64,000 nt of DNA from Flavobacteriaceae bacterium (GCA_024644725.1 JAHEHE010000003.1:2049-66048); one strand, 5' to 3'. Positions 30,503 through 46,786 are shown, numbered from the stretch's first letter. A program made the numbers and translations. The notes: a model not told the origin generated them from the sequence alone.

Positions 30503-31216
30503 ATGGTTCTTGAGATCGCAGAGCAAATGACATTTCCTTTGGCTGCAGGCTGCATTGCCGCAGTTCTGCATGTCCTCATGGGCCCGGATCACCTGGCCGC
30601 CGTGGCTCCCTTCGCTATCGAATCAAAAAGAAGAGCCTGGAAAATTGGCCTTTTCTGGGGTTTGGGTCATGTCTTCGGAATGCTCCTGATCGGAAGTCTC
30701 TTTTTGGGATTCCGGGAGGTAATTCCTATCGAAAAGATTTCGAATTACAGCGAACAACTGGTCGGCCTGGTTCTCATAATGATCGGCATCTGGGCTTTCT
30801 ACAAGATTTACAAGGAGAACGGAGGTCACAGCCACCTTCACGTGCACGCGGATCAACCCATGATTCACAAGCACCCCCATTCTCATGCAGAAAGACCCAC
30901 ACATGATCACAGGCATTCAAAGACAAAAGGTCAGGGGTTTCTTACGGCGTTCTCCGTAGGTGTCTTGCACGGCCTTGCAGGGGTTGCCCATTTCATCTTG
31001 TTCCTGCCCGTAGCCTCATTTGGAGATTCTTCGGATGCTATTCTCTATATCCTTGGATTTGTTTTTGGCACCGTGCTGGCCATGACTCTTTTCGCCCTGT
31101 TGATGGGAACCGTTTCATCCTTCGCCCAGAACGGGCACAACAAAAACCTGTTTCTTGGAATTCGATTTATTGGCGGATTGCTGGCAATCCTGATCGGGAT
31201 CTACTGGATGCTTTAG
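30503..31216 (+). CDS. UreH/NiCoT-like nickel transporter
   Basis: HVLMGPDH (HX4DH-like), WGLGH, His-rich loop and GVLHGLAG; flanks the hydrogenase genes. Confidence 0.82.
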   Translation: MVLEIAEQMTFPLAAGCIAAVLHVLMGPDHLAAVAPFAIESKRRAWKIGLFWGLGHVFGMLLIGSLFLGFREVIPIEKISNYSEQLVGLVLIMIGIWAFYKIYKENGGHSHLHVHADQPMIHKHPHSHAERPTHDHRHSKTKGQGFLTAFSVGVLHGLAGVAHFILFLPVASFGDSSDAILYILGFVFGTVLAMTLFALLMGTVSSFAQNGHNKNLFLGIRFIGGLLAILIGIYWML

Positions 31217-31218
31217 TT

Positions 31219-32244
31219 TCAGCAAATCCGTGGGAGCTGCTCTCCAATTAGAGGGGTGACGATTCGCTTTCCTCCGATTTCACTGTGAAGCACAACCTTG
31301 CCCCGATGCGTCGAGGTCACTTCCCCCACTCGAGTTGCCAACTGGCCAGATGACTCGTGTCGCATCAACTCCAAAACCTCCTGCTCAATTTCGGGATCTA
31401 CAAATACCGCGAACAGTCCCTCATTCGCAACGTACAACGGATCGAGCCCCAGCATTTCGCAAGCCGCAGCCACCTGCTTTTCCAGCGGCAGCTGTTCCTC
31501 GAAGATTTCAATTCCCACTTTTGCATCGACGGCAATCTCGGAGAGCACACTGGCCAAACCACCTCGGGTAGGATCCCTTAAAAAGTGGATTTTGTCTCCA
31601 AATTCGTCGAGGAGCTTCAGGACGAGATCATTGAGATTTGTGCTGTCACTCACTATCGCCGATTCAAACTCGAGTCCCTCGCGCTCAGACATAATGGCCA
31701 TGCCGTGCTGTGCTATGGGTCCGTTTACCAGAATTTTGTCTCCTTCCCGAATGTTTTTCACAGCAATGTTGGCCCTTGGATGTACTTCTCCAAAGCCCGT
31801 TGTATTGATGAAGATCTTATCGCCTTTTCCTCGTTCTACAACCTTGGTGTCACCCGTTATGATCTGGACACCGCTTTTGTCTGCAGCTCGTTTGACCGAC
31901 TCCACAATTTCCACGAATTCTTTCATGTCGAGTCCTTCCTCCACGATAAAGGCCAGAGAAAGGTACTTCGGTACAGCTCCGCACATGGCCACATCGTTGA
32001 CCGTGCCATGAACCGCAAGCTCACCGATGTTGCCGCCTTTGAAAAATATGGGAGACACCACAAAACTGTCGGTGGACACTGCCATGGGCCCCTCGAACTG
32101 AACCACAGAACCATCGTGTTTCTTGTCCAAAAGCTCATTCCCGAGAATCCGGAAGATCACTTGGTCAAGCAGGTCGCGGGTCATGACCCCCCCACTGCCG
32201 TGTCCGAGGTTAATGGCTTCAAAACCTGAATCTGTTTTTTTCAT
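31219..32244 (-). CDS. hypE: Carbamoyl dehydratase HypE
   Basis: LGHGSGG, STDSFVV, GDTKVV, RDPTRGG and C-terminal PRIC. Confidence 0.96.
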   Translation of the reverse strand: MKKTDSGFEAINLGHGSGGVMTRDLLDQVIFRILGNELLDKKHDGSVVQFEGPMAVSTDSFVVSPIFFKGGNIGELAVHGTVNDVAMCGAVPKYLSLAFIVEEGLDMKEFVEIVESVKRAADKSGVQIITGDTKVVERGKGDKIFINTTGFGEVHPRANIAVKNIREGDKILVNGPIAQHGMAIMSEREGLEFESAIVSDSTNLNDLVLKLLDEFGDKIHFLRDPTRGGLASVLSEIAVDAKVGIEIFEEQLPLEKQVAAACEMLGLDPLYVANEGLFAVFVDPEIEQEVLELMRHESSGQLATRVGEVTSTHRGKVVLHSEIGGKRIVTPLIGEQLPRIC

Positions 32245-32300
32245 ATACAATTGTTCATGATTGATTTTTCAGTTGATCACTTTTCACAGTCTCTGGTAAA

Positions 32301-32342
32301 TCATAGCTCAGACCGACTGTATCACACCTCAGATCGACTGTA
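32301..32342 (-). repeat. 21-bp tandem duplication of the hypD 3' end
   Basis: TACAGTCGATCTGAGGTGTGA followed by TACAGTCGGTCTGAGCTATGA (18/21 identical). Confidence 0.85.
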
Positions 32343-33410
32343 ATTGTAATAAGCGCTGCAGGCTCCTTCCGAAGAGACCATTGGGGCCCCCAGCGGATTC
32401 ATGGGGGTGCAGCCTTTTCCGAATTGAGAGCAATCTTTGGGCTTTTTCAAACCCCTCAGTATTTGACCGGCTATGCAATCCGGACTTTCGGAAACCTTTA
32501 TGTGGTCGATTCCGAACTTGTTCTCGGCATCGAAATCCCTATACTTGTCCTTGATTTTGTATCCGCTGTTGGGAATCATCCCAATTCCGCGCCATTCCCG
32601 GTCTCCTACCTCAAAAACCTCCCGGATCACCTCGATGGCCTTGCGATTTCCTTCTTCCTTCACCACTCGGGTGTATTGATTCTCCACCTCGCATCTGCCC
32701 TCTTCGAGTTGTTTGACGGCCATCCAGATGCCCTGAACCAGGTCCAGGGGTTCAAACCCGGTGATCACAATAGGAATCTGATATTTCTTCACCAAAGGAT
32801 AGTATTCTCTATAGCCCATGATCGCACAAACGTGACCTGCACCCAGAAAGGCGTTGATGGTGTTGAATTCATCGTCAAGAATGGCCTCAATAGCAGGTGG
32901 CACAAGCACATGTGAGACGAGTAGCGAGTAATTATTCAACCCCTCTTTCTCGGCGTGCAACAAGGAAAGGGCATTGGCCGGTGCCGTCGTTTCGAAACCA
33001 ACGGCGAAGAAAACGACTTCTTTGTCGGGATTCTTTTTGGCCACATTCACGGCTTCCAACGGAGAATAGAGAACCCGAAGGTCACCTCCACGGGCCTTGG
33101 CTTCCAATAAACTCATTTCGGTTCCGGGTACGCGAATCATGTCGCCGAAGGAGCAAACGATCGCTCCCTGGCTCAAAAGCTCAACAGCTTTGTCGATAAG
33201 GCTGACAGGAGTCACACAAACCGGGCAACCGGGCCCATGAATCATTCGGATGTTTTCGGGCAACATGTCCAGGATCCCGTTTTTTACCAGACCATGGGTC
33301 TGTCCCCCACATACTTCCATGATGTTCCAGGTTCCGCGGCACGTATTTTCAATTTCACGCAGCACCCTTTCGGTGGCTTCCCTGTTTCGATATTCCTTGA
33401 GATACTTCAT
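32322..33410 (-). CDS. hypD: Hydrogenase maturation protein HypD
   Basis: MEVCGGQTH, GPGCPVC, GFETT, PGHV-like GAGHVC and MVSSEGACSAYY. Confidence 0.96.
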   Translation of the reverse strand: MKYLKEYRNREATERVLREIENTCRGTWNIMEVCGGQTHGLVKNGILDMLPENIRMIHGPGCPVCVTPVSLIDKAVELLSQGAIVCSFGDMIRVPGTEMSLLEAKARGGDLRVLYSPLEAVNVAKKNPDKEVVFFAVGFETTAPANALSLLHAEKEGLNNYSLLVSHVLVPPAIEAILDDEFNTINAFLGAGHVCAIMGYREYYPLVKKYQIPIVITGFEPLDLVQGIWMAVKQLEEGRCEVENQYTRVVKEEGNRKAIEVIREVFEVGDREWRGIGMIPNSGYKIKDKYRDFDAENKFGIDHIKVSESPDCIAGQILRGLKKPKDCSQFGKGCTPMNPLGAPMVSSEGACSAYYNYSRSEV

Positions 33411-33417
33411 AATTTTA

Positions 33418-35682: not shown

Positions 35683-35712
35683 AGGTCTTTGCTGAATGGT
35701 CCGGAAACGAAG

Positions 35713-36246: not shown

Positions 36247-36258
36247 TCTTTACAATTT

Positions 36259-36336
36259 AAAAAAAGGACCGCCCTTAGGAGCCTGGAAATGCTTTTCAAC
36301 AGTTCATTAAAACAGTTCATAGCATCGGGCGGTCCT
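36259..36336 (-). terminator. Terminator-like long stem-loop between hyaC and hyaD
   Basis: AGGACCGCCC/GGGCGGTCCT 10-bp stem with a 52-nt structured interior, followed by a U-tract on the transcribed strand. Confidence 0.6.
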
Positions 36337-36342
36337 CAAATA

Positions 36343-37059
36343 CTAAATGGTGTCTCCTTTATCTAAGCGCTCTTTGCGCACAAACTTGTATCCACTGATC
36401 ATGGAGGAGGATTCCCCCCGTCCTTCCAACCAGTCATGGTAAAACACGAGGTACACATGAACCAGGGTGAAAATGATAAACAACCAGGTCGCTATGTGAT
36501 GCACATAGCGTGTTGTCATTTCATCCCCAAGAACATAGGGTACCCAGGAGAAAAGTTTGGGTAGCCACCAACCTGAAGTCGGAGCGTAGAGTCCAAATCC
36601 TGTGAAGATCTGAACAAGAGCCAACAGAAAGAGTACCACGTAAGAAAGAGAAGCCACGTAATTGTGCCCCACACTGTGGTTCTTCAGTACTTCTTTTTCC
36701 TCGTTCTGCAGGAGAATGTCAACTTTGAGTACGTGTTTGATATTGTCCCATTCCTTTTTTGAAAGGGGGATAAAAGCCCTCCAATTCGAGTAATAGTTTC
36801 CCATGAAGGCCCAATAAATTCGGGCTACGGCATTGATCAGGAAAATATACCCTGTAGTGAAGTGTATCATTCGAACGGTTCCAAACCAGTACGAATCCAC
36901 TGCCTCGGCACTGGACATGATCCCAGGAGGATCGGCAATGATAAACCCCGTAACAGCGAGAACTGTAATGCTGAGCACATTTACCCAATGAAATATCCTT
37001 ACGGGCAATTCCCAGACCAGCACCCTCTTAAATTCATATGTCTTATGTACGGTATCCAC
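36343..37059 (-). CDS. hyaC: Ni/Fe-hydrogenase b-type cytochrome subunit
   Basis: WELPVRIFHW, RMIHF, GHN, RYVHH and TLVHVY heme ligands; ends SSMISGYK. Confidence 0.95.
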   Translation of the reverse strand: MDTVHKTYEFKRVLVWELPVRIFHWVNVLSITVLAVTGFIIADPPGIMSSAEAVDSYWFGTVRMIHFTTGYIFLINAVARIYWAFMGNYYSNWRAFIPLSKKEWDNIKHVLKVDILLQNEEKEVLKNHSVGHNYVASLSYVVLFLLALVQIFTGFGLYAPTSGWWLPKLFSWVPYVLGDEMTTRYVHHIATWLFIIFTLVHVYLVFYHDWLEGRGESSSMISGYKFVRKERLDKGDTI

Positions 37060-37096
37060 AATTTCTCAGATTTTGATTAGACTTGAAATCTTCTGG

Positions 37097-38830
37097 CTAA
37101 ACTTCACAGCTCCCTACATTACTTACTTTGGAGATGTGATTGCCATGTTCATCGTACAGGTGAACGGCACAAGCCAGGCAGGGATCAAAAGAATGCACGG
37201 TTCTTATAATTTCGAGTGGCAGCTCAGGATCGGCAACAGGCGTATCCAAAAGCGAGGACTCATACGCGGACAACTGACCATTCGGATCTCTTGGAGAAGC
37301 ATTCCACGTTGTAGGAACCACCTGCTGATAGTTCTCCGTCTTGCCGTCCTTGATTCTTATCCAGTGGGCAAGACCACCCCTTGGTGCCTCGGTGAATCCA
37401 ACTCCCTTGCATTCCGCCGGCCATTTGGAGGGTTCCCAAAGGTCCATATTCGCCATTCGCTTGTCACCATTTTTGATATTGGCCAACAGTTGATTGTAGA
37501 ATTCAAGTGTCCAGCCGCCCACGAGTTTGCTCTCGATTCCACGGGCAGCGGTTCTTCCCAAAGTCGAGAAGAGGGCGTCCACCGGAACATCAAGGTGAGC
37601 CAGTGCCCCGTTGACGGCTTCTTGGATCTCTTCATTGCCGCGGGCGTAACCCACAAGAAGTCTTGACAATGGCCCTACCTCCATAGGTTTGCCTTGCCAT
37701 CTCGGCGTTTTCACAAAACTGTATTTGCCTTCGACATCGAGGTGGTCGAAAGGAGGTTTTGGACCCGAATACTCGATGTTGGTTTCCCCGTCCCATGGGT
37801 GTCTTCCGGTTTCTGAGCCTTCGGCATAATCCGTGTACCAGGAATTGTTCACGAACTCCTCGATGTCACCGTTGCGATGATCCACATCATGCACAGTAGA
37901 AAGGTCCCGATTCAGTATGACGCCCTGCTGGAACTTGAAGTTAGACGGATCGCCGTATCCATTGGTAGGGAAATCTCCGTAAGACATGTAGTTTCCAATT
38001 CCTTTTCCAATGGCACCCCAGTCCTTGTAGAAGGAGGCAATAGCCAAGAGGTCAGGAATGTAGACCTGATCGATAAAATCATACCCATCCTTAAGAAGCT
38101 TGCCCACATGCGCCAGTCTTTCTGCGTTGAGTCCGCCTGTACTTTCCTCATTGATGGCACAGGCCATACCGCCCACCAGGTAATTCGGGTGCGGATTCTT
38201 TCCGCCGAGGATGGTGTGTACCTTTACTATTTCCTTCTGCCATTCAAGGGCCTCAAGGTAATGCGCAACTGCCAGGAGATTTACCTCTGCAGGAAGCTTC
38301 ATTTGGCTGTGTCCCCAGTACCCGTTGGCGAAAATGCCAAGTTGGCCGCTTTCCACGAACTTCTTGATTCGGTTTTGAACGTCGCTGAAATAGCCCGGGG
38401 AGCTCTTCGGCCATTTCGAAATGCTCTGTGCAATTTGAGAGGTCCCTGCCGGATCGGCGCTCAGTGCGCTTACCACATCTACCCAGTCAAGGGCATGAAG
38501 GTGATAGAAATGAACGGCGTGGTCGTGCATGTAGAGAGCCCCCTCCATGATATTTCTGACCATCTCAGCGTTGGGAGGAATCGCTATGCCCAATGCATCT
38601 TCAACCGCTCGCACCGAGGCAATGGCATGCACCGTAGTGCATACCCCGCAGGTTCTTTGTACGAAAGCCCAGACATCCCTGGGATCTCGTCCTTTTACGA
38701 TGTTCTCCAGCCCACGCACCATAGTACTTGAACTGTAGGCATCAACGATTTTTCCGTCTTTGATTTCAGCTTCTATTCTTAAGTGTCCTTCGATCCTTGT
38801 TACCGGATCAACAACGATTCTTTGTGCCAT
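37097..38830 (-). CDS. hyaB: Group 1 (1d-like) membrane-bound [NiFe]-hydrogenase large subunit
   Basis: RIEGH, L1 QRTCGVCTTVH, HPN and L2 SFDPCLACAVH plus a cleavable tail. Confidence 0.96.
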   Translation of the reverse strand: MAQRIVVDPVTRIEGHLRIEAEIKDGKIVDAYSSSTMVRGLENIVKGRDPRDVWAFVQRTCGVCTTVHAIASVRAVEDALGIAIPPNAEMVRNIMEGALYMHDHAVHFYHLHALDWVDVVSALSADPAGTSQIAQSISKWPKSSPGYFSDVQNRIKKFVESGQLGIFANGYWGHSQMKLPAEVNLLAVAHYLEALEWQKEIVKVHTILGGKNPHPNYLVGGMACAINEESTGGLNAERLAHVGKLLKDGYDFIDQVYIPDLLAIASFYKDWGAIGKGIGNYMSYGDFPTNGYGDPSNFKFQQGVILNRDLSTVHDVDHRNGDIEEFVNNSWYTDYAEGSETGRHPWDGETNIEYSGPKPPFDHLDVEGKYSFVKTPRWQGKPMEVGPLSRLLVGYARGNEEIQEAVNGALAHLDVPVDALFSTLGRTAARGIESKLVGGWTLEFYNQLLANIKNGDKRMANMDLWEPSKWPAECKGVGFTEAPRGGLAHWIRIKDGKTENYQQVVPTTWNASPRDPNGQLSAYESSLLDTPVADPELPLEIIRTVHSFDPCLACAVHLYDEHGNHISKVSNVGSCEV

Positions 38831-38841
38831 GAGTTTTGATT

Positions 38842-39972
38842 TTATTCGTTCTTGTCGAGTTTCTCCTCATTGATACGACCTCGCGTATATCGGTTCTTGA
38901 GTTCCTTGTATTTCGATACATTTGCCGCAACGGCATGAGCGGTCAATCCGGCAACCACAGCTCCTGTGGCAACCTTGCCCACAGTGTCAGCCGTACTTTC
39001 AATACCGAATCCTGGAGTGCTGCCAAGTCGCTTGTAGAAAGGACCGTTGTCCCAGAAGTTCGCTTCACTACATCCTATGCAGCCATGACCTGATTCGATT
39101 GGGAAGCTCACGCCTCCATTCCATTTCATGCTACCGCAGGCGTTATAGGTAGTGGGCCCCTTGCATCCCAGCTTGTAGAGGCAATAGCCCTCTTTCGCAT
39201 TCTGGTCATCAAAGGTCTCGGCGAATAACCCCGCGTCGAAGTAGGGTCTCCTGTAGCAAGTATCATGCACGCGCTTTCCATAAAAAGCTTTGGGTCGGCC
39301 TGCCCGGTCGAGTTCGGGAAGCCTGTCAAAGGTCACATAATGTACGATCAGGGCTGCCATTGCTTCGCCAATAGGAGGACAACCCGGCATATTGATCACC
39401 GGTTTGTTGGTGATGATCTTATTAATAGGTGTTGCGCCCGTAGGATTGGGCTTGGCTCCCTGCACACATCCATTTGTAGCACAGCTTCCCCAGGCGATGA
39501 TTGCCTTGGCCCCCTCGGCTGCTTCTTTCAGGTGGTCGAGCGCCGTTTTACCTGCAATGGTGCAGAAAACACCATTCTCACCCATCGGCACAGATCCTTC
39601 CACACACAGGATGTACTCACCCTTGTACTTCTCCATCGTATCGTGCTTGGCCGCTTCAGCCTGGTGACCAGATGCAGCCATAAGTGTTTCGGTATAATCC
39701 AGCGAAACCGTATCGAGGATGATGTCTGCAACAATGGGGTGACTGGATCTGATGAACGACTCACTGCAACACGTGCACTCCTGATAATGCTCCCAGATGA
39801 TGGGAAGTCGGAAATTGCTCTCCATGGATTTGGCAACTTGTCCGATCAGGGTGTGGTCGAGCCCCATATAGGCGGTTATAAAAGCAGCAAACTTCATGAA
39901 ATCCCTTCTGGAATAACCTTTTCGCCTGGCGCTTTCGTAATAGGTTTCCCGTATTCCTTGTTTTGTGTCCAT
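38842..39972 (-). CDS. hyaA: Membrane-bound [NiFe]-hydrogenase small subunit (Tat signal, six-Cys proximal cluster, C-terminal anchor)
   Basis: SRRDFMK, ECTCCSES, WGSCATNGC, PGCPP, HDTCYRR, FPIESGHGCIGC and a hydrophobic tail. Confidence 0.96.
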   Translation of the reverse strand: MDTKQGIRETYYESARRKGYSRRDFMKFAAFITAYMGLDHTLIGQVAKSMESNFRLPIIWEHYQECTCCSESFIRSSHPIVADIILDTVSLDYTETLMAASGHQAEAAKHDTMEKYKGEYILCVEGSVPMGENGVFCTIAGKTALDHLKEAAEGAKAIIAWGSCATNGCVQGAKPNPTGATPINKIITNKPVINMPGCPPIGEAMAALIVHYVTFDRLPELDRAGRPKAFYGKRVHDTCYRRPYFDAGLFAETFDDQNAKEGYCLYKLGCKGPTTYNACGSMKWNGGVSFPIESGHGCIGCSEANFWDNGPFYKRLGSTPGFGIESTADTVGKVATGAVVAGLTAHAVAANVSKYKELKNRYTRGRINEEKLDKNE

Positions 39973-40076
39973 AATGTAATGATTTGGTATTTTGGAGTCC
40001 CTCCTCCGCCATCTGGCATTCCTGGATGACGGGTAAATTCAACAGCTCAATTTAATTGGAATAAATCATTGATAAC

Positions 40077-40090
40077 ATGACGATTATCAT
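40077..40090. promoter_or_regulatory. Crp/Fnr-like palindrome ATGAC-GATT-ATCAT in the hyaA/hypA divergent promoter
   Basis: TGAY-N4-RTCA with matching outer A/T bases; TAACTTTA (-7-like) at 40112-40119. Confidence 0.6.
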
Positions 40091-40150
40091 ACTTTTTGAC
40101 TTTTATTTCATTAACTTTATAGGTTAATTTCATCTTAGCCTTTTATCAGT

Positions 40151-40492
40151 ATGCACGAACTATCCGTTGCCATGGGCATCGTACGAATCGCCGAAGATGA
40201 GTTGGCGAAGTCATCTGCTCAGGGGATTGAACTGATTGAGCTTGAGATCGGTGACCTGGCCGGTATTGAGCTTGATTCGCTAGAATACGTGTGGGAAGCC
40301 GCCGTTAAAGGAACCGCGCTGGAAACGGCTGAGAAGAAAATACATCGCATAGGCGGAAGAGGAGTATGCCTGGACTGCGATGAGGAGTTTGAGCTGGAGC
40401 AACACTTTGACTCCTGTCCGAATTGCAACAGTTTTCTGAAGCAGATTCTTCAGGGAAAAGAGCTTAGAGTCAAGGCTCTGCAGGTTTTTTAA
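40151..40492 (+). CDS. hypA: Nickel metallochaperone HypA
   Basis: MHELS, CLDC...CPNC and GKELRV. Confidence 0.96.
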   Translation: MHELSVAMGIVRIAEDELAKSSAQGIELIELEIGDLAGIELDSLEYVWEAAVKGTALETAEKKIHRIGGRGVCLDCDEEFELEQHFDSCPNCNSFLKQILQGKELRVKALQVF

Positions 40493-40499
40493 ACGAACA

Positions 40500-40535
40500 A
40501 TGATCCAGATCAATTAATGCGGTGATCCTGGTCAT
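40500..40535. promoter_or_regulatory. Two tandem Crp/Fnr-like boxes upstream of hoxF
   Basis: ATGAT-CCAG-ATCAA (40500-40513) and GTGAT-CCTG-GTCAT (40522-40535), 22-bp period. Confidence 0.6.
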
Positions 40536-40588
40536 TGAACCGTCTCACGTTATTTACTTTATTGCTTGCCTACACTTAATTTTCAACT

Positions 40589-42412
40589 ATGATTGATTCC
40601 AACTATAAGGTAAGAAAGTCGTCGTTGCTTCCCGTTCTATGGGACATTCAGAGAAAAAGAAGATTTATTTCTGAAGATGACATCACAAAAATCGCCAAGG
40701 AATTTAACATGTCGAGGATCGAACTCGAAGGTGTAATTTCCTTTTATCATTTCTTTCATACCCGTCATGCAGGTCTTTACACCATTTACCTGAACAATGC
40801 GATCGTTTCGAAGCACAAGAACTTCGAACGCGTCAAGAAGGCTTTCGAACGTGAATTGGGGATCAGCGTGGGAGAGGTCACGCAAGATCGCATGTTCGGT
40901 CTGTTCGAGACTTCCTGCATCGGTTTGAGCGACCAGGAAACGGCCGCCCTGATCAATTTTTACCCTTTCACGAACCTAACCCCTGAAAAAGTCAATACAC
41001 TCATTCGGAAACTGAGAAAAGGAGAAAGTCCGGCGAGGCTGGCAGATATTCCCAAAGACAACATCAGATATTTGCCCGAGGCGGAAAAAGTTGTTTTCTT
41101 CAAAGACTACAAACCGGGTTTGGGGCTTCAAAAGGCCATCGAAATCGCACCTGGTGAAGTTATAGATTTGGTTACAGAATCCAAACTGTCCGGCAGAGGA
41201 GGCGCATTTTTCCCAACCGGACTCAAATGGGGAATATGTCGCAGCCATGATGCGGATCAGAAGTACTTGATTTGCAACGCAGATGAGGGAGAGCCTGGCA
41301 CCTTTAAAGACAGGGTACTGATGAATCAGCACCCGGGACTGCTCTTAGAGGGTATGACCATTGCCGGGTATGCCATTGGGGCGTCCAAAGGTTTCATCTA
41401 TTTAAGAGCCGAATACTACTATCTCAAGAAGAAGATTGAAGATGCGATCGAGGAGTTCAAAGAAAAGAACCTATTGGGACGGTCCATCCTTCAGAAAGAG
41501 GGCTTCAATTTTGAAATCTTTGTCTATATGGGTGCAGGGGCATATGTCTGCGGGGAGGAAACTGCGCTGATAGCATCCATGGAAGGAAAAAGGGGAGAAT
41601 CCAGCACTAAAGAGTTCTTCCCGGTTGAACGTGGATTTCTCGATAAACCTACAGTCGTAAACAATGTGGAGACCCTGTGCGCCGTCCCAAGAATTCTTGA
41701 AATGGGTGTGGATCGGTACCTGCAAATTGGTACTCCTGCCACCCCAGGTACGAAACTGATCAGCGTCTCGGGAGACTGCGAAAGGCCCGGTATTTACGAG
41801 ATTGAATGGGGCATGAAACTCCGGGATCTGCTGAACCTGATGAAGGCCGAGGATCCCTACCTGATCCTGTTCAATGGCTATGCGGGCGAGTGCCTTTCCG
41901 AAGCCGATTTTGAACGTGAAATATCAGGAGAGAATCTGCTGGGAGAGCATATCCAGTTCGAATTCGATGACCCTATCGTGTATTCACAAAAAATGAGCGC
42001 AATTGGTCTTAGAAGTGGTGGTTCCTTTATGGTTTTCAACCGGGACCGGGACTTCATGGGCATCTTAAAGAACATCGCTGACTTTTTCGTTTCGGAATCC
42101 TGTGGGATCTGCGCCCCATGCAGAACCGGCAACTTCCTGTTGAACAAAAAGCTGCGAAAGATTGAATTGTGCCATGCGGGTAACAAGGATCTCGAAGACA
42201 TTCAGAAATGGAGTACCATTATCAAACAGTCGAGCCGATGCGGCCTGGGCAAAACCTCAACGAACTGCCTACTCACGGCAATTCTGAAATTCCCGGAGGA
42301 ATTCAAAAAATGCCTCCTCGCCGAAAGCGACTACAATGAGAGTTTCATCGTTTCCGAATTGGTTCAGGATTACGACAATATTATTCACGAAATACAGCAT
42401 ACAGATGAATGA
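40589..42412 (+). CDS. hoxF: NAD-linked hydrogenase diaphorase flavoprotein HoxF (NuoE-like + NuoF-like; Cupriavidus SH type)
   Basis: SFYHFF, FETSCIGLSDQ, CNADEGEPG, YVCGEET, NNVET and SCGICAPCR...CGLG. Confidence 0.93.
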   Translation: MIDSNYKVRKSSLLPVLWDIQRKRRFISEDDITKIAKEFNMSRIELEGVISFYHFFHTRHAGLYTIYLNNAIVSKHKNFERVKKAFERELGISVGEVTQDRMFGLFETSCIGLSDQETAALINFYPFTNLTPEKVNTLIRKLRKGESPARLADIPKDNIRYLPEAEKVVFFKDYKPGLGLQKAIEIAPGEVIDLVTESKLSGRGGAFFPTGLKWGICRSHDADQKYLICNADEGEPGTFKDRVLMNQHPGLLLEGMTIAGYAIGASKGFIYLRAEYYYLKKKIEDAIEEFKEKNLLGRSILQKEGFNFEIFVYMGAGAYVCGEETALIASMEGKRGESSTKEFFPVERGFLDKPTVVNNVETLCAVPRILEMGVDRYLQIGTPATPGTKLISVSGDCERPGIYEIEWGMKLRDLLNLMKAEDPYLILFNGYAGECLSEADFEREISGENLLGEHIQFEFDDPIVYSQKMSAIGLRSGGSFMVFNRDRDFMGILKNIADFFVSESCGICAPCRTGNFLLNKKLRKIELCHAGNKDLEDIQKWSTIIKQSSRCGLGKTSTNCLLTAILKFPEEFKKCLLAESDYNESFIVSELVQDYDNIIHEIQHTDE

Positions 42413-43673
42413 GCTAGTCAAAATCGTTATCGACGGACAAGAATACAAAGTGGCAAAAGGAAAGAAAATGGTCGATGCGGCCAAGGAGAAAGGAATTTAC
42501 ATCCCTACACTCTGTCATTTCCGTGAGATCGAGAATTCATTGGGAACCTGCCGCATATGCACGGTAAAAATCAATGGAAAACTTACCACGAGTTGTACCC
42601 AGAAGGTCGAAGAAGGCATGGAGGTGGAAGTAAACACCCCTGAACTGATCGATACACGAAAGGCCATCATAGAGATGCTCTTTGCTGAAGGAAATCACTT
42701 TTGTCCCTCCTGTGAGAAGAGCGGAAACTGTGACCTGCAGAACCTGGCTTACGACATGGGAATAACCGTGTCGCGCTTCCCTCACGTGTTCAGCAACAAA
42801 TTGAAAGATTTTAACGCCTCCCGCATGATCATGGACTCCAACCGCTGTATTCTTTGCAGTCGTTGTGTGAAAGAAATTAACACCGCCGGAGGACTGGACG
42901 TCTTTTCTTTCGTGAATCGAGGCGTGAATACCCGGGTCAGAATAGATTATGAAGAGGAGGAAAAACTCTCTGAAGCAGATGCGCTTCGCGCCATGAACCT
43001 GTGCCCGGTTGGAGCAATTCTCGTCAAGGGAATGATCCATAAGGAGCCGTTTGGCGAGAGAAAATACGACATCTTCGGCAGGAGCAAGTCGACGCCGAAA
43101 ACAACAAGTTGCTCATACAAGCGTGATGATGAGAAATTCATAGTTGCCACCACTTCCCTTGCCGGATGCTTTGGCTGCCACATGTCATTGTTGGACATTG
43201 ACCTTGAGCTGATCGACATGCTCGAGATCGTTGAATTCAACAAGTCACCTTTGACCGACATCAAGAATTTCAGCAAGCGCTGTCACGTGGGCCTGATCGA
43301 AGGGGGCTGCTGCAACTCGGAGAACGTGGAGGTCCTCCGGGAATTCAGAAAGAAATGCGACATCCTCATCGTCTTCGGCGAGTGCGCAATCATGGGGGGT
43401 ATTCCTGCCATGCGAAATTTCGTTCCGCTCAAAGAATGTCTCGAAGAGTCTTATATCCATGGGATCACAAGCGAAATTGGGGCCAATGTCATTCCCAACC
43501 ACGAAGACATCCCCAAACTTCTGAACAATGTGTACCCCTGCAACGAAATCGTGAAAATTGACCATTTCATACCCGGATGCCCTCCGAGTGCCGAACATAT
43601 TTGGAAGGCGGTCAAGAGTGTTCTGCTTGGCAAGGAAATGACCATAACACATGAAGAATTCAAATACGATTAA
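42405..43673 (+). CDS. hoxUY: HoxU-HoxY fusion (diaphorase Fe-S subunit + hydrogenase small subunit), 422 aa
   Basis: HoxU motifs IPTLC, GTCRIC, HFCPSCEKSGNC, RCILCSRC and CPVG continue in frame into HoxY motifs GCFGCHMS, EGG, GECA and PGCPP. Confidence 0.88.
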   Translation: MNELVKIVIDGQEYKVAKGKKMVDAAKEKGIYIPTLCHFREIENSLGTCRICTVKINGKLTTSCTQKVEEGMEVEVNTPELIDTRKAIIEMLFAEGNHFCPSCEKSGNCDLQNLAYDMGITVSRFPHVFSNKLKDFNASRMIMDSNRCILCSRCVKEINTAGGLDVFSFVNRGVNTRVRIDYEEEEKLSEADALRAMNLCPVGAILVKGMIHKEPFGERKYDIFGRSKSTPKTTSCSYKRDDEKFIVATTSLAGCFGCHMSLLDIDLELIDMLEIVEFNKSPLTDIKNFSKRCHVGLIEGGCCNSENVEVLREFRKKCDILIVFGECAIMGGIPAMRNFVPLKECLEESYIHGITSEIGANVIPNHEDIPKLLNNVYPCNEIVKIDHFIPGCPPSAEHIWKAVKSVLLGKEMTITHEEFKYD

Positions 43674-43684
43674 AGTCAAAGAAG

Positions 43685-45142
43685 ATGCAAAACAAAATCG
43701 TCATAGACCCCGTAACCCGTGTTGAAGGTCACGGCAAGGTAACCATCCATCTGGATGAGCAAAACAAGGTCACGGATTCCTTTTTTCACATTGTCGAATT
43801 CCGTGGCTTTGAAAAATTTGTCCAGGGCCATCCGTATTGGGAAGCTCCTGTCATGGTTCAGCGCCTCTGCGGCATCTGCCCGGTGAGTCATCATTTGGCT
43901 GCTGCCAAGGCCATTGACCGCATCGTGGGTCTGGAGCCCCATGAACTGTCTATCACCGCACAAAAGATCAGAAAGCTTTTGCACTACGGACAGATTTTTC
44001 AGTCACATGCGCTACACTTCTTCTATCTGGCATCTCCGGATTTGCTCTTTGGATTCAAGTCCAGTCCTGAAATGCGAAATGTAGTGGGTGTCGCCATGGA
44101 ATACCCTGAACTGGCCAAAAAGGGGATTCTGATGCGCAAATTCGGTCAGGAGATCATCAAGATGGTTGCCGGCAAGAAAATTCACGGGATCTCAACGACT
44201 CCCGGAGGTGTCCATAAAAAGATCACGGTGCGTGAGCGGGACTACTTCCTCAACGGGAAAGACATACCGTCCATTGACACGATGATCTCATGGTCACAGG
44301 AGATCATCGACTTCATGAAATCCTACCACGGTCAAAATGCACACTGGTTGAATGAGTTTGCGACGTACCCATCCGGGCACCTGGGTCTGGTCAACGCCAA
44401 AAACGGTTACCTGGAGCTTTACGACGGACGCTTGAGAGCTATCGATTCCATGGGGCATAAGACTTTGGACGATATTGAAGACGAGGAGTACCAGCATTAC
44501 TTTTATGAAGGTGTCGAAAAATGGTCCTATCTCAAGTTCCCATATCTCAAGCACCTGGGTCGCTCAGAGGGATGGAACCGAGTTGGGCCTCTCGCTCGCT
44601 TGAACGTCTGCGAAGGAATCTCCACGCCTTTGGCGGCCTATGAAAGACTTCAGTTTCTGGATGCCAATCAAGGGAAAACCTGCAACCGAACCATGTTCTC
44701 GCATTGGGCACGCTTGATTGAGCTCTTGCATTGTGCGGAAATGATGAAAGATCTTCTGGAAGATGACGATCTATTGAGCAATGACCTGGTCCGAAGAGGA
44801 GAGCGCAGAAATGAGGGCGTAGGAATCATCGAAGCCCCAAGGGGCACACTGATCCATCATTACCAGGTGGATGAGAAAGACAGGATCACAAGATGCAACC
44901 TGATTGTCTCAACCACCCACAACAACGAGGCTATGAATCGTGCGGTCAAATGGGTGGCCGAAAATGAAATTAGTGGAAAAGCGAAAATAGGCGAAAGCCT
45001 CCTGAATAAAGTTGAAGTGGCGATTCGAGCCTACGATCCGTGCCTGAGCTGTGCAACGCATGCTCTTGGAAAAATGCCTTTAGAGGTTTCACTTCTAGAT
45101 CACAATGGGAACACAATCGATGTCAAAAGAAAGAGCGAGTAG
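43685..45142 (+). CDS. hoxH: Group 3d [NiFe]-hydrogenase large subunit HoxH
   Basis: RVEGH, L1 RLCGICPVSH and L2 AYDPCLSCATH plus a C-terminal extension. Confidence 0.95.
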   Translation: MQNKIVIDPVTRVEGHGKVTIHLDEQNKVTDSFFHIVEFRGFEKFVQGHPYWEAPVMVQRLCGICPVSHHLAAAKAIDRIVGLEPHELSITAQKIRKLLHYGQIFQSHALHFFYLASPDLLFGFKSSPEMRNVVGVAMEYPELAKKGILMRKFGQEIIKMVAGKKIHGISTTPGGVHKKITVRERDYFLNGKDIPSIDTMISWSQEIIDFMKSYHGQNAHWLNEFATYPSGHLGLVNAKNGYLELYDGRLRAIDSMGHKTLDDIEDEEYQHYFYEGVEKWSYLKFPYLKHLGRSEGWNRVGPLARLNVCEGISTPLAAYERLQFLDANQGKTCNRTMFSHWARLIELLHCAEMMKDLLEDDDLLSNDLVRRGERRNEGVGIIEAPRGTLIHHYQVDEKDRITRCNLIVSTTHNNEAMNRAVKWVAENEISGKAKIGESLLNKVEVAIRAYDPCLSCATHALGKMPLEVSLLDHNGNTIDVKRKSE

Positions 45143-45578
45143 GACCCTGGTTTTGGGCATAGGGAACTGCGGCCGCAAAGATGACGGTTTGGGCTGGAAA
45201 TTCATCGACTTTTTAAAGGAGCAGAAAATCGAAGATCTGGACCTGGATTATCGTTATCAACTTCAGATTGAGGACGCTGAACTGATCTCAAATTACGACC
45301 GTGTAATTTTTGTAGATGCCACAAAAGAGCCCACAACGGATGGCTTCTATTTAAGGCCCTGCTCCAAGGTCGGGATGACGGAAATGAACAGTCACAGTCT
45401 GCATCCAGAGACCGTTTATTCCCTGTGCTCTGCCGTCTATGACAAGAATCCGGAGTGCCTGATAATGGGTATAGAGGGAAAAGACTGGGGGCTCGAAACA
45501 GGACTGAGCTCTGAGGCCGAAAGTAACCTGGAACGTGCCAAACGTTACTTCATTGCTCATCTTTTTGTGTATCTTTGA
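45120..45578 (+). CDS. hoxW: Hydrogenase maturation protease HoxW
   Basis: VLGIGN..RKDDGLG, YQLQIE, VIFVDA and SHSLHP. Confidence 0.88.
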   Translation: MSKERASRTLVLGIGNCGRKDDGLGWKFIDFLKEQKIEDLDLDYRYQLQIEDAELISNYDRVIFVDATKEPTTDGFYLRPCSKVGMTEMNSHSLHPETVYSLCSAVYDKNPECLIMGIEGKDWGLETGLSSEAESNLERAKRYFIAHLFVYL

Positions 45579-45608
45579 GTGAACGTCTAAGTTTAAAATG
45601 TAAGAATT

Positions 45609-46505
45609 ATGTGCGGAACCTGCGGTTGCGGCTCACCCGACGGCAAAGCCGTTCTTCGTAAGCCATCTCAAAATCACGCCCATCAAGGTGATCACGAACA
45701 CGATCATAGTCACGGACACGATCATAGTCACGGACACGATCACCATCATCATCATGAGGAGGGTCACCCCCACTCCCATGGACATTCTCACGATCATGAA
45801 CATGCGCATGGACATAGTCATGGACACAGCCACCAGCATCATGATCACGATCACAAGAGTACGGTGCTCGAGGTGGAAAAGAACATACTGCTTCAGAATG
45901 ACATGCAGGCAGCACGAAACCGTGGGTATTTTGAAGCCAAGCAAATATTGGCGCTAAACCTGGTCAGCTCCCCGGGGTCAGGAAAAACTTCGATCCTGGA
46001 GCGAACTCTGAAGGACTTGAAAGAAGAGATATCTTTCACGGTGATTGAAGGCGATCAGCAGACCCTCCAGGATGCCAACCGAATTGATGCGCTTCAGATT
46101 CCCGTGATTCAGATCAACACCGGCAAAGGCTGCCACCTGGAAAGCGACATGGTCTTTGATGCTGTTAAAGAGCTGGCTCCAAAAGACGACTCTATACTGA
46201 TGATTGAGAACGTGGGCAACCTGGTCTGTCCGTCCATGTTTGACCTGGGTGAAAAACATCGAATTGTCATTCTCAGCATTACCGAAGGAGAAGACAAGCC
46301 CCTGAAATACCCGGATATGTTTCATTCCTCTGACATCTGCCTGATCAACAAAATAGATTTGCTTCCACACCTGAACTTTGACCTGGATAAACTCAAAGAA
46401 TACGCATTACAGGTGAATCCGAATCTGCAATTCTTCGAGATCTCAGCAACGACAGGTGAGGGAATGCAACACTGGTATGACTGGCTGAAAAATGCCAGAA
46501 AATAG
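45609..46505 (+). CDS. hypB: Nickel GTPase HypB with CxxCGC and a His-rich insert
   Basis: MCGTCGC, 31 His in 60 residues, SSPGSGKT, GCHL, ENVGNL and NKID. Confidence 0.96.
   Translation: MCGTCGCGSPDGKAVLRKPSQNHAHQGDHEHDHSHGHDHSHGHDHHHHHEEGHPHSHGHSHDHEHAHGHSHGHSHQHHDHDHKSTVLEVEKNILLQNDMQAARNRGYFEAKQILALNLVSSPGSGKTSILERTLKDLKEEISFTVIEGDQQTLQDANRIDALQIPVIQINTGKGCHLESDMVFDAVKELAPKDDSILMIENVGNLVCPSMFDLGEKHRIVILSITEGEDKPLKYPDMFHSSDICLINKIDLLPHLNFDLDKLKEYALQVNPNLQFFEISATTGEGMQHWYDWLKNARK
45699..45734 (+). repeat. Perfect 18-bp tandem repeat x2 (HDHSHG) in hypB
   Basis: CACGATCATAGTCACGGA twice. Confidence 0.9.
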
Positions 46506-46522
46506 ATAAAAAACTAATTGAT

Positions 46523-46786
46523 ATGTGTCTGTCGATTCCCGGAAAACTCATAGAAGTCACATCAGAGCTCGATGAAACGTTTCGACTTGGTCGGGTGTCT
46601 TTTGACGGCATTGTAAAAGAAGTCAGCCTGACCCTGGTCCCGGAGGCCAAGGTCGGTGACTATGTAATGGTCCACGTCGGAGCGGCGATCAGCCTGGTCG
46701 ACGAGGAAGAAGCCGTGAAGACTTTCGATCTGCTGAAACAACTCGGCGAACTCCACGATCTGGACGATACCGGAGAGACCGAGTAA
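46523..46786 (+). CDS. hypC: Hydrogenase chaperone HypC
   Basis: MCLSIPG and VGDYVMVHVG. Confidence 0.96.
   Translation: MCLSIPGKLIEVTSELDETFRLGRVSFDGIVKEVSLTLVPEAKVGDYVMVHVGAAISLVDEEEAVKTFDLLKQLGELHDLDDTGETE

What the first reader, a model, noticed from the sequence alone, without database searches (positions are those of the whole stretch)
30503..46786. Dual [NiFe]-hydrogenase island in a flavobacterium: respiratory uptake enzyme back-to-back with an NAD-linked Hox
Seen: about 16 kb holding hyaABCD-hypFDE (minus), hypA-hoxF-UY-H-W-hypBC (plus) and a Ni transporter. Known: group 1d enzymes feed H2 electrons to quinones, and group 3d enzymes interconvert H2 and NADH. Inference: this heterotroph can be an H2 mixotroph, or may cycle H2 internally at low O2 (Hox disposes of NADH, Hya recaptures H2). 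Flavobacteriaceae are rarely studied for H2 metabolism. No carbon fixation genes are in the window.
Basis: partly seen in the sequence, partly recalled or inferred. Interest (0 to 1): 0.78.

Follow-up and report, generated by a model that had tools for sequence, protein, structure and literature searches.

The report
Two-hydrogenase gene island in Lutimonas
A marine flavobacterium (a Lutimonas genome from a metagenome) carries intact genes for a membrane-bound H2-oxidising enzyme and an NAD-linked reversible hydrogenase side by side. The enzyme types are known and the same cassette recurs in many relatives, so it is a solid but fairly ordinary find with a few unusual details.

Summary
Window 30503-46786 holds hypE-D-F, hyaD-C-B-A on the minus strand and hypA, hoxF, a fused hoxU-hoxY, hoxH, hoxW, hypB-C on the plus strand, plus a His-rich membrane protein. 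All frames are intact.

The host is a Lutimonas MAG (Flavobacteriaceae).

- **Uptake enzyme:** it has every functional hallmark of group 1d: Tat signal, six-cysteine proximal cluster, C-terminal anchor and an adjacent cytochrome b. Its large subunit falls in a separate Bacteroidota/Acidobacteriota/Verrucomicrobiota clade. The position of that clade relative to textbook 1d and Isp-type 1e is unresolved. The clade lacks HyaE/HyaF-type helpers.
- **Hox enzyme:** it is a Cupriavidus/Hydrogenophilus-type group 3d enzyme, and HoxU and HoxY are fused.
- **Distribution:** the island is not rare. Of 400 Flavobacteriaceae species sampled, 27 have the uptake enzyme, 19 have Hox and 14 have both. All use one hyp scaffold that carries either or both cassettes.
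- **Regulation:** a palindrome, ATGAY-N4-RTCAT, is conserved in the divergent promoter region.

No RuBisCO was found in the genome; two haem-copper oxidases are present. H2 mixotrophy is likely. Internal H2 cycling is untested. Published sediment metagenomics already links Flavobacteriaceae to these hydrogenases. First-stage notes of this scan describe Hox operons in other genomes, one next to a membrane-bound enzyme.

The parts
30503..31216 (+). 237-aa membrane protein, putative Ni/Co permease (DsbD_2 / UreH-like; His-rich central loop; HxxxGxDH in the first helix)
   Evidence: Pfam DsbD_2 31 bits, with weak RcnA and ArsG hits. Sequence. Found next to hyp genes in 15 of 18 Flavobacteriaceae loci, including Hya-only and Hox-only ones. 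Sources name its homologues variously 'nickel transporter', 'UreH domain', 'RcnA' or 'TauE/SafE'. No significant similarity to Rhizobium HupE.
31219..32250 (-). hypE
   Evidence: TIGR02124, 428 bits, over cut-off
32322..33410 (-). hypD
   Evidence: TIGR00075, 490 bits
33418..35682 (-). hypF carbamoyltransferase
   Evidence: TIGR00143, 666 bits
35713..36246 (-). hyaD, endopeptidase for the uptake large subunit
   Evidence: TIGR00072, 109 bits; Pfam HycI
36343..37059 (-). hyaC, b-type cytochrome membrane subunit
   Evidence: TIGR02125, 170 bits, over cut-off; Pfam Ni_hydr_CYTB
37097..38830 (-). hyaB, uptake [NiFe] large subunit (RIEGH...RTCGVCT; DPCLACAVH plus a 20-aa tail that is cleaved off)
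   Evidence: Sequence. PDB matches. Trees.
38842..39972 (-). hyaA, small subunit with Tat signal (SRRDFMK), six-Cys proximal cluster motif (ECTCC; GSCATNGC) and C-terminal membrane helix
   Evidence: Sequence. Residue-by-residue alignment to HoxK and HyaA. TIGR00391, 508 bits. Small-subunit tree.
39973..40150 (.). Divergent control region with the palindrome TGACGATTATCA at 40078-40089
   Evidence: A box of the form ATGAY-N4-RTCAT is present in the equivalent spacer of 16 of 17 loci, against 0.22 expected.
40151..40492 (+). hypA
   Evidence: TIGR00100, 83 bits (cut-off 88). Conserved position in all relatives.
40493..40588 (.). hypA-hoxF spacer with two further boxes (40501, 40523)
   Evidence: A box precedes hoxF in most Hox-bearing relatives.
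40589..42412 (+). hoxF, NAD/FMN diaphorase subunit whose NuoE-like N-domain lacks the 2Fe-2S cysteines
   Evidence: Pfam domains. Full-length alignment to 5XF9_A. Sequence.
42405..43673 (+). Fused hoxU-hoxY (422 aa)
   Evidence: Fused at full length in all 12 Flavobacteriaceae Hox loci examined. All 120 listed database relatives are 406-433 aa and carry both HoxU-type and HoxY-type Pfam domains.
43685..45142 (+). hoxH, [NiFe] large subunit of the NAD-linked enzyme
   Evidence: 5XF9_D 526 bits. 49% identical to Cupriavidus necator HoxH over its full length.
45105..45578 (+). hoxW, endopeptidase for HoxH
   Evidence: TIGR00072, 65 bits, over cut-off
45609..46505 (+). hypB
   Evidence: TIGR00073, 280 bits
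46523..46786 (+). hypC
   Evidence: TIGR00074, 81 bits

Best explanation
The stretch is a complete, self-contained hydrogen-metabolism island of a Lutimonas species. It has four working parts.

1. **Uptake enzyme.** HyaA-HyaB is exported by the Tat pathway, anchored by the HyaA tail and bound to the cytochrome b HyaC. It splits H2 on the outer face of the inner membrane and passes the electrons to the menaquinone pool. From there they reach the cell's haem-copper oxidases. The small subunit has the six cysteines that build the oxygen-tolerant [4Fe-3S] cluster, so the enzyme should work with some O2 present.
2. **Hox enzyme.** HoxF, fused HoxU-HoxY and HoxH form a cytoplasmic three-polypeptide enzyme. 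It couples NAD+/NADH to H2 in either direction. It would vent surplus reductant as H2 when acceptors run out, or make NADH from H2.
3. **Maturation.** One hypABCDEF set is split over the two divergent operons and matures both enzymes. Each enzyme also has its own endopeptidase.
4. **Nickel supply.** The flanking His-rich membrane protein probably supplies nickel.

The island is one variant of a family-wide modular scaffold. A conserved palindrome lies in the divergent promoter and again before hoxF, which suggests one regulator switches the whole set.

Shown here: gene identities, cofactor motifs, clade placement, synteny, operator conservation, and that no RuBisCO was found. Inferred: direction of electron flow, O2 tolerance, nickel transport, regulation, and that the cell uses H2 as a supplementary energy source while growing on organic carbon.
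For: - Family and structure matches for all 16 genes.
- The six proximal-cluster cysteines align with those of Cupriavidus HoxK and E. coli HyaA.
- Tat motif and C-terminal helix are present.
- The small-subunit tree puts this protein with the canonical 1d small subunits and apart from Isp-type ones (99/98 and 100/98 support).
- HoxH is 49% identical to Cupriavidus HoxH.
- HoxF has no extra ferredoxin domain.
- The genome has two COX1-family oxidases, and no RuBisCO was found.
- These two are the only [NiFe] large subunits in the genome.
- Synteny of the scaffold holds in 18 relatives: 9 with both cassettes, 6 with Hya only and 3 with Hox only.
- The operator is present in 16 of 17 spacers against 0.22 expected.
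- Base composition matches the flanks.
- Sediment studies link Flavobacteriaceae to group 3 hydrogenases and H2 oxidation (PMC8857189, PMC8443593).
Against: - No expression or activity data exist.
- The only flavobacterial isolate tested for H2 uptake in the literature read here (Robiginitalea biformata, a different group 1l enzyme) consumed none (PMC10305171).
- The large subunit is not inside canonical 1d.
- The HyaE/HoxO and HyaF/HoxQ helpers, which to my recollection support aerobic assembly of the proteobacterial enzymes, were found neither in the genome nor in any locus of the clade.
- The genome is a 90% complete MAG, so 'not found' does not prove absence.
- The nickel permease label has no curated family support.
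Confidence: 0.75

Rival explanations
1. The two enzymes work as one hydrogen-cycling loop at low O2. Hox turns NADH into H2 in the cytoplasm, and the periplasmic Hya enzyme re-oxidises it and feeds the quinone pool. Together they act as an alternative energy-conserving NADH:quinone route. It adds to the best explanation and does not exclude it.
For: - Both operons diverge from one 178-bp region.
- The same palindrome sits in that region and again before hoxF, in the window and in most relatives. This fits joint induction.
- 14 of 19 Hox-bearing species in the sample also have Hya, and at least 9 have the two adjacent.
Against: - The cassettes also occur singly on the same scaffold: 13 sampled species have Hya only and 5 have Hox only. 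Neither enzyme therefore needs the other.
- NADH-driven H2 formation is uphill unless H2 is kept very low (standard potentials, established knowledge).
- No transcript or flux data exist.
Confidence: 0.2
2. The uptake enzyme is really an Isp-type (group 1e) or otherwise O2-sensitive anaerobic enzyme that serves sulfur or other anaerobic respiration, not aerobic H2 oxidation.
For: - The best solved match of the large subunit is the Allochromatium vinosum enzyme 3MYR_B: 815 bits, against 632-740 for 1d enzymes.
- The best large-subunit tree joins its clade to the 1e clade, weakly (76/73).
- A sister subclade in the same family has the ordinary four-cysteine cluster.
Against: - All 1e loci examined have a four-Cys small subunit. 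Most have about 2 kb of isp genes between the subunits, and none has a HyaC-type cytochrome b.
- The window has six Cys, adjacent subunits and HyaC.
- The small-subunit tree separates it from 1e with 99/98 support.
- Grouping with canonical 1d is not rejected (AU p = 0.23).
Confidence: 0.05
3. The Hox enzyme is an electron-bifurcating NiFe-HydABCSL-type or NADP-linked (3b) hydrogenase rather than a simple NAD-linked one.
For: HoxH scores 484 bits against the bifurcating Acetomicrobium enzyme 7T2R_D, not far below the 526 bits for 5XF9_D.
Against: - HoxF has only the NuoE-like, FMN and single 4Fe-4S domains, with no C-terminal ferredoxin domain.
- Its NuoE-like part lacks the 2Fe-2S cysteines, as in the Hydrogenophilus enzyme.
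- The HoxU part is the short 240-aa form, not the long HydA form.
- The gene order hoxF-U-Y-H-W matches Cupriavidus.
Confidence: 0.04
4. The island is a recently transferred or decaying passenger with no role in this organism.
For: - Distribution in the family is patchy: 7% of species have Hya and 5% have Hox.
- One relative has a stop codon in hoxH (G362).
Against: - All 16 frames are intact with complete ligand motifs.
- GC content equals that of the flanks.
- Both other sampled species of the genus carry the island in the same order, with 88-91% HyaB identity.
- The operator is conserved while the surrounding spacer has diverged.
Confidence: 0.04

Closest known systems
Membrane-bound O2-tolerant hydrogenases of group 1d: Cupriavidus necator HoxKGZ, E. 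coli Hyd-1 HyaABC, Rhizobium leguminosarum HupSLC
   Same: - Gene order small subunit, large subunit, cytochrome b, protease.
- Tat signal.
- All six proximal-cluster cysteines, Glu in the VEG motif, and a C-terminal anchor.
- Small subunit scores 452-456 bits against HoxK and HyaA.
- The canonical small subunits nest among those of this clade.
   Different: - The large subunit is only 51-58% identical.
- It forms a separate, well-supported clade with Bacteroidota, Chlorobiota, Acidobacteriota and Verrucomicrobiota sequences (100/99).
- There are no HyaE/HoxO/HupG or HyaF/HoxQ/HupH genes, and no dedicated HoxL/HupF, HoxR, HoxT or HoxV next to it.
- There is no H2-sensing regulatory hydrogenase: only two [NiFe] large subunits are in the genome.
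Allochromatium vinosum membrane-associated hydrogenase (PDB 3MYR), Isp-type group 1e
   Same: It is the closest solved large subunit (62% identity, 815 bits).
   Different: 1e loci have a four-Cys small subunit, most have isp genes between the subunits, and none has a HyaC-type cytochrome b. The small subunit scores only 342 bits.
Soluble NAD-reducing hydrogenases of group 3d: Hydrogenophilus thermoluteolus (PDB 5XF9), Cupriavidus necator HoxFUYHWI
   Same: - Gene order hoxF-U-Y-H-W.
- HoxF has a cysteine-poor NuoE-like domain.
- FMN, NAD and Fe-S motifs are intact.
- HoxH is 49% identical to the Cupriavidus protein.
   Different: - HoxU and HoxY are one polypeptide.
- There is no hoxI.
- The hox genes are embedded between hypA and hypB of a shared maturation operon.
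Hydrogenase-bearing Flavobacteriaceae of coastal permeable sediments, and Phaeodactylibacter xiamenensis
   Same: Published genome surveys report Flavobacteriaceae (for example Eudoraea and Lutibacter) with H2-oxidising and group 3 hydrogenases. They also report a Bacteroidetes with groups 1d, 2a and 3d (PMC8443593, PMC8857189, PMC13502197, PMC5037454).
   Different: In the text I read, those papers give marker-gene calls only. The island architecture, the fusion, the shared hyp set and the operator are not described there.

Membership tests
[NiFe] hydrogenase group 1d (oxygen-tolerant, respiratory uptake) | Large subunit with the N- and C-terminal CxxC nickel-iron ligand pairs and a cleavable C-terminal tail | tested here: met
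   RTCGVCT and DPCLACAVH followed by 20 residues. Aligned with 1d structures.
[NiFe] hydrogenase group 1d (oxygen-tolerant, respiratory uptake) | Six-cysteine proximal [4Fe-3S] cluster motif in the small subunit | tested here: met
   ECTCC and GSCATNGC, then PGCPP. All align column for column with Cys17, 19, 20, 115, 120 and 149 of HoxK.
[NiFe] hydrogenase group 1d (oxygen-tolerant, respiratory uptake) | Tat signal peptide and membrane attachment through a b-type cytochrome encoded next to the large subunit | tested here: met
   SRRDFMK. hyaC matches TIGR02125 at 170 bits and starts 37 nt after hyaB.
[NiFe] hydrogenase group 1d (oxygen-tolerant, respiratory uptake) | Large subunit placed inside the 1d clade (the basis of the HydDB classification) | tested here: inconclusive
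   It forms its own clade (100/99), apart from the four canonical 1d references. The branching order of 1d, 1e and this clade is unresolved: B+C has 76/73 support, and A+C is not rejected at p = 0.23. The HydDB classifier itself was not available.
[NiFe] hydrogenase group 1d (oxygen-tolerant, respiratory uptake) | Sustained H2 oxidation in the presence of O2 | not testable with these tools
   Needs enzyme electrochemistry or whole-cell gas assays.
[NiFe] hydrogenase group 1e (Isp-type) | isp1 and isp2 genes between the small and large subunit genes, a four-Cys proximal cluster, and no HyaC-type cytochrome b | tested here: not met
   In the window the subunit genes are 11 nt apart, the cluster has six Cys, and HyaC is present. 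Of the 1e-clade loci (L011-L077, L080, L087) in which a small subunit was found, most had a gap of about 2 kb, and none had a six-Cys motif or a HyaC homologue.
[NiFe] hydrogenase group 3d (NAD-coupled, Hox/SH type) | HoxH large subunit related to known NAD-reducing enzymes | tested here: met
   5XF9_D 526 bits. 49% identity to C. necator HoxH and 44% to Acaryochloris HoxH.
[NiFe] hydrogenase group 3d (NAD-coupled, Hox/SH type) | Diaphorase module: HoxF (NuoF-like, with FMN and NADH sites and a 4Fe-4S cluster) and HoxU (NuoG-like N-terminal Fe-S domains), encoded with HoxY and HoxH | tested here: met
   Pfam Complex1_51K, NADH_4Fe-4S, Fer2_4, NADH-G_4Fe-4S_3 and Oxidored_q6. Matches to 5XF9 chains A, B and C.
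[NiFe] hydrogenase group 3d (NAD-coupled, Hox/SH type) | NAD(H)-dependent H2 turnover | not testable with these tools
   Needs an enzyme assay.
Electron-bifurcating NiFe-HydABCSL | NuoF-like subunit with an extra C-terminal ferredoxin-type domain, and a cluster-bearing NuoE-like subunit | tested here: not met
   HoxF has no Fer4 domain. The NuoE-like region keeps one of the four cysteines.
Secondary nickel/cobalt transporters (NiCoT, HupE/UreJ, UreH, RcnA) | Match to a curated family model above its cut-off | tested here: not met
   Only Pfam DsbD_2 is above its cut-off. RcnA scores 21 bits (cut-off 195) and NicO gives no hit. BLASTP against HupE is not significant. A motif of the form HxxxGxDH, a His-rich loop and synteny are the only support.

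The most novel reading that the evidence does not exclude
Flavobacteriaceae carry a plug-in hydrogenase scaffold: one hyp set, one putative nickel permease and one Crp/Fnr-like operator. An uptake cassette, a Hox cassette or both are slotted into it.

On this reading its enzymes are real variants of the textbook ones:
- a six-cysteine uptake enzyme that assembles without any HoxO/HoxQ-type helper;
- close four-cysteine sisters in the same operon frame;
- a three-polypeptide NAD-linked hydrogenase in which the diaphorase and hydrogenase halves are covalently joined.

Where both cassettes are present they would be co-induced at low O2 and run as an H2-cycling NADH-to-quinone loop.
Probability: 0.15. 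Interest if true: 0.65.

Novelty: new member of a known kind. Interest (0 to 1): 0.38.

Why it matters
Flavobacteriaceae are among the most abundant heterotrophs of coastal sediments and seawater. If this island works as read, part of that family can draw energy from H2 and also release it. This bears on how H2 is turned over in sands where oxygen comes and goes.

The survey also points to cultured species that look like natural single-cassette controls.
- Aegicerativicinus sediminis and Muriicola jejuensis: uptake enzyme only.
- Abyssalbus ytuae: Hox only.
- Lutimonas zeaxanthinifaciens and Namhaeicola litoreus: both.

The question can therefore be tested without genetics.

The six-Cys and four-Cys sister enzymes, and the lack of the usual aerobic assembly helpers, give enzymologists a compact system for asking what O2 tolerance really requires. 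The fused HoxU-HoxY may be useful for building more stable NADH-regenerating hydrogenases.

Tried and rejected
- **Representative-library search with HyaB.** Clusters at 50% identity merge the subgroups, and the best hit was only 46% identical. It was of no use for subgroup assignment.
- **First AU test.** It failed on a row-name mismatch and silently dropped two rows. I repeated it correctly.
- **Membrane protein against Rhizobium HupE.** Not significant. Searches of the genome for NiCoT found nothing. A HupE/UreJ search gave one weak hit elsewhere, on contig C110, which I did not follow up.
- **Group 1e assignment.** I considered this because 3MYR_B is the top structure hit. I rejected it on operon content, cysteine pattern and the small-subunit tree.
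- **Bifurcating HydABCSL and group 3b/3c readings of Hox.** NCBIfam's best hit for HoxH was VhuA, but at half its cut-off. I rejected these readings on partner subunits.
- **Neighbouring genes.** The TonB-receptor-like gene upstream (28638-30401) has no counterpart in any relative's locus, and the AI-2E transporter downstream (46798-47889) only in the two other Lutimonas species. I left both out of the island.
- **Clade II NosZ and cytochrome bd.** Neither was found in the genome.
- **Literature.** I found no paper describing a natural HoxU-HoxY fusion. I found none on Lutimonas hydrogenases.

Full report
**What is there**

- Minus strand: hypE (31219-32250), hypD (32322-33410), hypF (33418-35682), a HyaD-type endopeptidase (35713-36246), a hydrogenase b-type cytochrome (36343-37059), the large subunit (37097-38830) and the small subunit (38842-39972).
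- Plus strand, after a 178-bp spacer: hypA (40151-40492), hoxF (40589-42412), one frame containing hoxU and hoxY (42405-43673), hoxH (43685-45142), a second endopeptidase (45105-45578), hypB (45609-46505) and hypC (46523-46786).
- At the left edge: a 237-aa membrane protein (30503-31216).

All frames are open, and GC content does not differ from the flanks. The window is contig 65 of a 2.83-Mb, 161-contig assembly that is 90% complete. These two are its only [NiFe] large subunits. HyaB is 98% identical to a protein named 'MAG: Lutimonas sp.' and 91% identical to that of Lutimonas zeaxanthinifaciens. The host is therefore a Lutimonas species, Flavobacteriaceae.

**The uptake enzyme**

The small subunit starts with a twin-arginine signal (SRRDFMK) and ends with a hydrophobic helix. 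Aligned to Cupriavidus HoxK and E. coli HyaA (456 and 452 bits), it keeps all six cysteines of the [4Fe-3S] proximal cluster (ECTCC, GSCATNGC, PGCPP). This includes the two extra cysteines that ordinary hydrogenases replace by glycine. The Allochromatium small subunit scores only 342 bits.

The large subunit behaves differently. Its best solved match is the Allochromatium vinosum enzyme 3MYR_B (815 bits, 62% identity). This is ahead of Salmonella Hyd-5 (740), E. coli Hyd-1 (685) and Cupriavidus MBH (632). To my knowledge HydDB files 3MYR under the Isp-type group 1e.

To resolve this I fetched 80 named genome loci ranked by likeness to 3MYR_B. I added reference loci from E. coli, Cupriavidus, Rhizobium, Afipia, Alteromonas, Parabacteroides, Salmonella (Hyb) and Sulfurimonas. 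I scored each for three traits: the small-subunit cysteine pattern, the distance between the subunit genes, and a HyaC homologue. The traits sort cleanly.

- Proteobacterial loci 66-81% identical to 3MYR_B have four-Cys small subunits (ECTGC), no HyaC, and in most cases about 2 kb of isp genes between the subunit genes.
- Loci from Chlorobiota, Verrucomicrobiota, Acidobacteriota, Bacteroidales and Cyclobacteriaceae have six Cys and HyaC, and in all but one (L078) the subunit genes are adjacent. They are 65-81% identical to the Lutimonas HyaB.

Maximum-likelihood trees of the large subunit give three well-supported groups:
- canonical proteobacterial 1d (100/99);
- Isp-type 1e (98/97);
- a third clade holding the window and the six-Cys loci above (100/99).

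Their branching order is not resolved. The best tree joins the third clade to 1e at 76/73. Joining it to 1d costs 5.2 log-likelihood units (AU p = 0.23). Joining 1d to 1e gives p = 0.069.

The small-subunit tree is clearer. The canonical 1d small subunits nest among those of the third clade. That joint group is separated from the Isp-type small subunits by branches with 99/98 and 100/98 support.

My reading is that the enzyme is of the 1d kind in every feature that defines how it works. It belongs, however, to a lineage distinct from the textbook enzymes. HydDB's own paper calls the enzymes of a Bacteroidetes (Phaeodactylibacter) and of Kryptonia group 1d (PMC5037454). That suggests the classifier would say 1d here too, but I could not run it.

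One more difference from the textbook enzymes concerns the helper genes. Homologues of HyaE/HoxO/HupG occur only in the four canonical 1d loci. Homologues of HyaF/HupH occur only in 1d and 1e loci. None occurs in any locus of the third clade, and whole-genome searches of the window's assembly find neither.

**The Hox enzyme**

- HoxH matches the Hydrogenophilus NAD-reducing hydrogenase best (5XF9_D, 526 bits). It is 49% identical over its whole length to Cupriavidus HoxH and 44% to a cyanobacterial HoxH.
- HoxF aligns over nearly its whole length (residues 26-582 of 607) with 5XF9_A. Like it, HoxF has a NuoE-like N-domain without the 2Fe-2S cysteines. The FMN, NADH and 4Fe-4S motifs are intact, and there is no additional ferredoxin domain. 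This argues against the bifurcating HydABCSL type, whose large subunit was the second-best hit.
- The 422-aa frame after hoxF matches HoxU with residues 9-222 and HoxY with residues 242-422, so it is a true fusion. The joint is no longer than the two termini it replaces.
- The fusion is full length in all 12 Flavobacteriaceae Hox loci examined. All 120 listed database relatives are 406-433 aa long and carry both HoxU-type and HoxY-type Pfam domains.
- I found no paper describing a natural fusion of this kind.
- Group 3d membership is met on every sequence-level criterion.

**Distribution and architecture**

In an even sample of 400 Flavobacteriaceae species:
- 27 (24 of 302 genera, counting the window's own) have a close HyaB (71-91% identity);
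- 19 have HoxH;
- 14 have both.

I cut out 18 loci and mapped the island's proteins onto them. The result is a single scaffold. The membrane protein comes first, then hypE-D-F, reading away from a spacer. On the other side of the spacer lie hypA ... hypB-C.

- The hyaD-C-B-A cassette sits between hypF and the spacer.
- The hoxF-UY-H-W cassette sits between hypA and hypB.
- Nine loci have both cassettes, six have the uptake cassette only (hypA-B-C then contiguous), and three have the Hox cassette only.
- The membrane protein is next to hyp genes in 15 of the 18 loci, whichever cassette is present.

This synteny is the best argument that the membrane protein serves hydrogenase maturation. Its sequence has an HxxxGxDH motif in the first helix and a loop with 11 histidines. 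It reaches only Pfam DsbD_2, and sources name its homologues inconsistently. Nickel import is therefore an inference.

Beyond the family, HyaB homologues at 57-72% identity occur in 25 of 180 sampled genera of the phylum.

**Regulation**

The spacers are otherwise too diverged to align. Even so, 16 of them carry one box with the extended form ATGAY-N4-RTCAT, against 0.22 expected from shuffled spacers. A second box lies just upstream of hoxF in most Hox-bearing loci.

In the window the boxes are at 40078, 40501 and 40523. The inner half-sites resemble the FNR-type consensus, which I cite from memory. Which protein binds is unknown. Related genomes are not independent samples, so the count overstates the statistics. 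Still, conservation within diverged spacers is real evidence for a shared operator.

**Physiology**

- No RuBisCO large subunit was found in the genome.
- It has two COX1-family oxidases, one with a 720-aa frame and one with 591 aa.
- No cytochrome bd and no clade II NosZ was found.

H2 would therefore supplement organotrophic growth through the quinone pool and O2 respiration. Hox would balance NAD(H).

Published sediment work fits this reading:
- Eudoraea MAGs were inferred to use hydrogen and to switch between respiration and fermentation (PMC8443593).
- Lutibacter isolates carry 3b or 3d enzymes (PMC13502197).
- Groups 1d, 1e and 3d are the most abundant hydrogenase reads in those sands (supplement of PMC8443593).

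Against optimism, the one flavobacterial isolate tested for uptake (Robiginitalea, group 1l) consumed no H2 (PMC10305171).

Internal H2 cycling remains a hypothesis. Co-regulation would fit it, but either cassette occurs alone on the same scaffold, so neither enzyme depends on the other.

**Verdict**

It is somewhat too confident on the 1d label and on novelty, and untested on physiology.
- This is a new member of known enzyme kinds, in a family where such genes have already been reported by marker-gene surveys.
- The parts worth a specialist's attention are the distinct six-Cys clade without the usual assembly helpers, the four-Cys sisters in the same operon frame, the HoxU-HoxY fusion, the modular hyp scaffold and the conserved operator.
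- First-stage notes of this scan describe Hox operons in other genomes, one of them next to a membrane-bound enzyme. The general arrangement is therefore not unique to this window.

Noticed in passing
L097 (G343), L110 (G265), L111 (G276), L112 (G301); compare window 38842-39972: A subclade of Flavobacteriaceae uptake hydrogenases has the same operon and cytochrome b, and HyaB is 70-74% identical. Its small subunit has the ordinary four-cysteine motifs (ECTGC, GSCSSWGGVQ) instead of six. It is nested in the six-Cys clade on the large-subunit tree but sister to all six-Cys sequences on the small-subunit tree. This is a natural pair for studying O2 tolerance.
   Followed up: partly
window 40078-40089, 40501-40512, 40523-40534; spacers of L095-L112: The palindrome ATGAY-N4-RTCAT is conserved in the divergent promoter region of 16 of 17 related islands (0.22 expected) and again before hoxF. 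It is probably the operator of an unidentified Crp/Fnr-like regulator.
   Followed up: partly
L078-L090 and L095-L112; whole genome G000: No HyaE/HoxO/HupG or HyaF/HoxQ/HupH homologue lies near any six-Cys enzyme of the Bacteroidota/Acidobacteriota/Verrucomicrobiota clade. They are present at the canonical 1d loci, and HyaF/HupH also at 1e loci.
   Followed up: partly
A hypD copy lies about 1.5 Mb away on the same chromosome.
   Followed up: partly
L103 (G069:C262) and G069 contigs C311, C17: One MAG has three HoxH matches and a second hoxF-like gene after hoxH. Its contamination estimate is 6%, so it may be a mixed bin or may hold a real second Hox operon.
   Followed up: no
G362:C196:6490-7941: A HoxH match 77% identical has one in-frame TAA. 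It is a possible pseudogene or a sequencing error.
   Followed up: no
L078 (uncultured Chlorobi bacterium): The six-Cys small subunit lies 4.9 kb from the large subunit, although a cytochrome b follows the large subunit. Something is inserted between the subunit genes.
   Followed up: no
phylum sample, family code f24: One family of small (2-3 Mb) genomes in another class of the phylum has a HyaB homologue (about 64% identity) in 76 of 87 species. That is far denser than in Flavobacteriaceae. A few of these matches contain in-frame stops.
   Followed up: no
window 28638-30401: A short (587 aa) TonB-receptor-like protein with CarboxypepD_reg and Plug domains lies just upstream of the membrane protein. 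It has no counterpart beside the island in relatives, so I did not count it as part of the island.
   Followed up: partly
L006 (Parabacteroides distasonis record NZ_OY725764.1): A gut anaerobe carries a member of the same clade (62% HyaB identity) with ECTCC in the small subunit, a cytochrome b and a full hyp set. The six-Cys signature is therefore not confined to aerobes.
   Followed up: no
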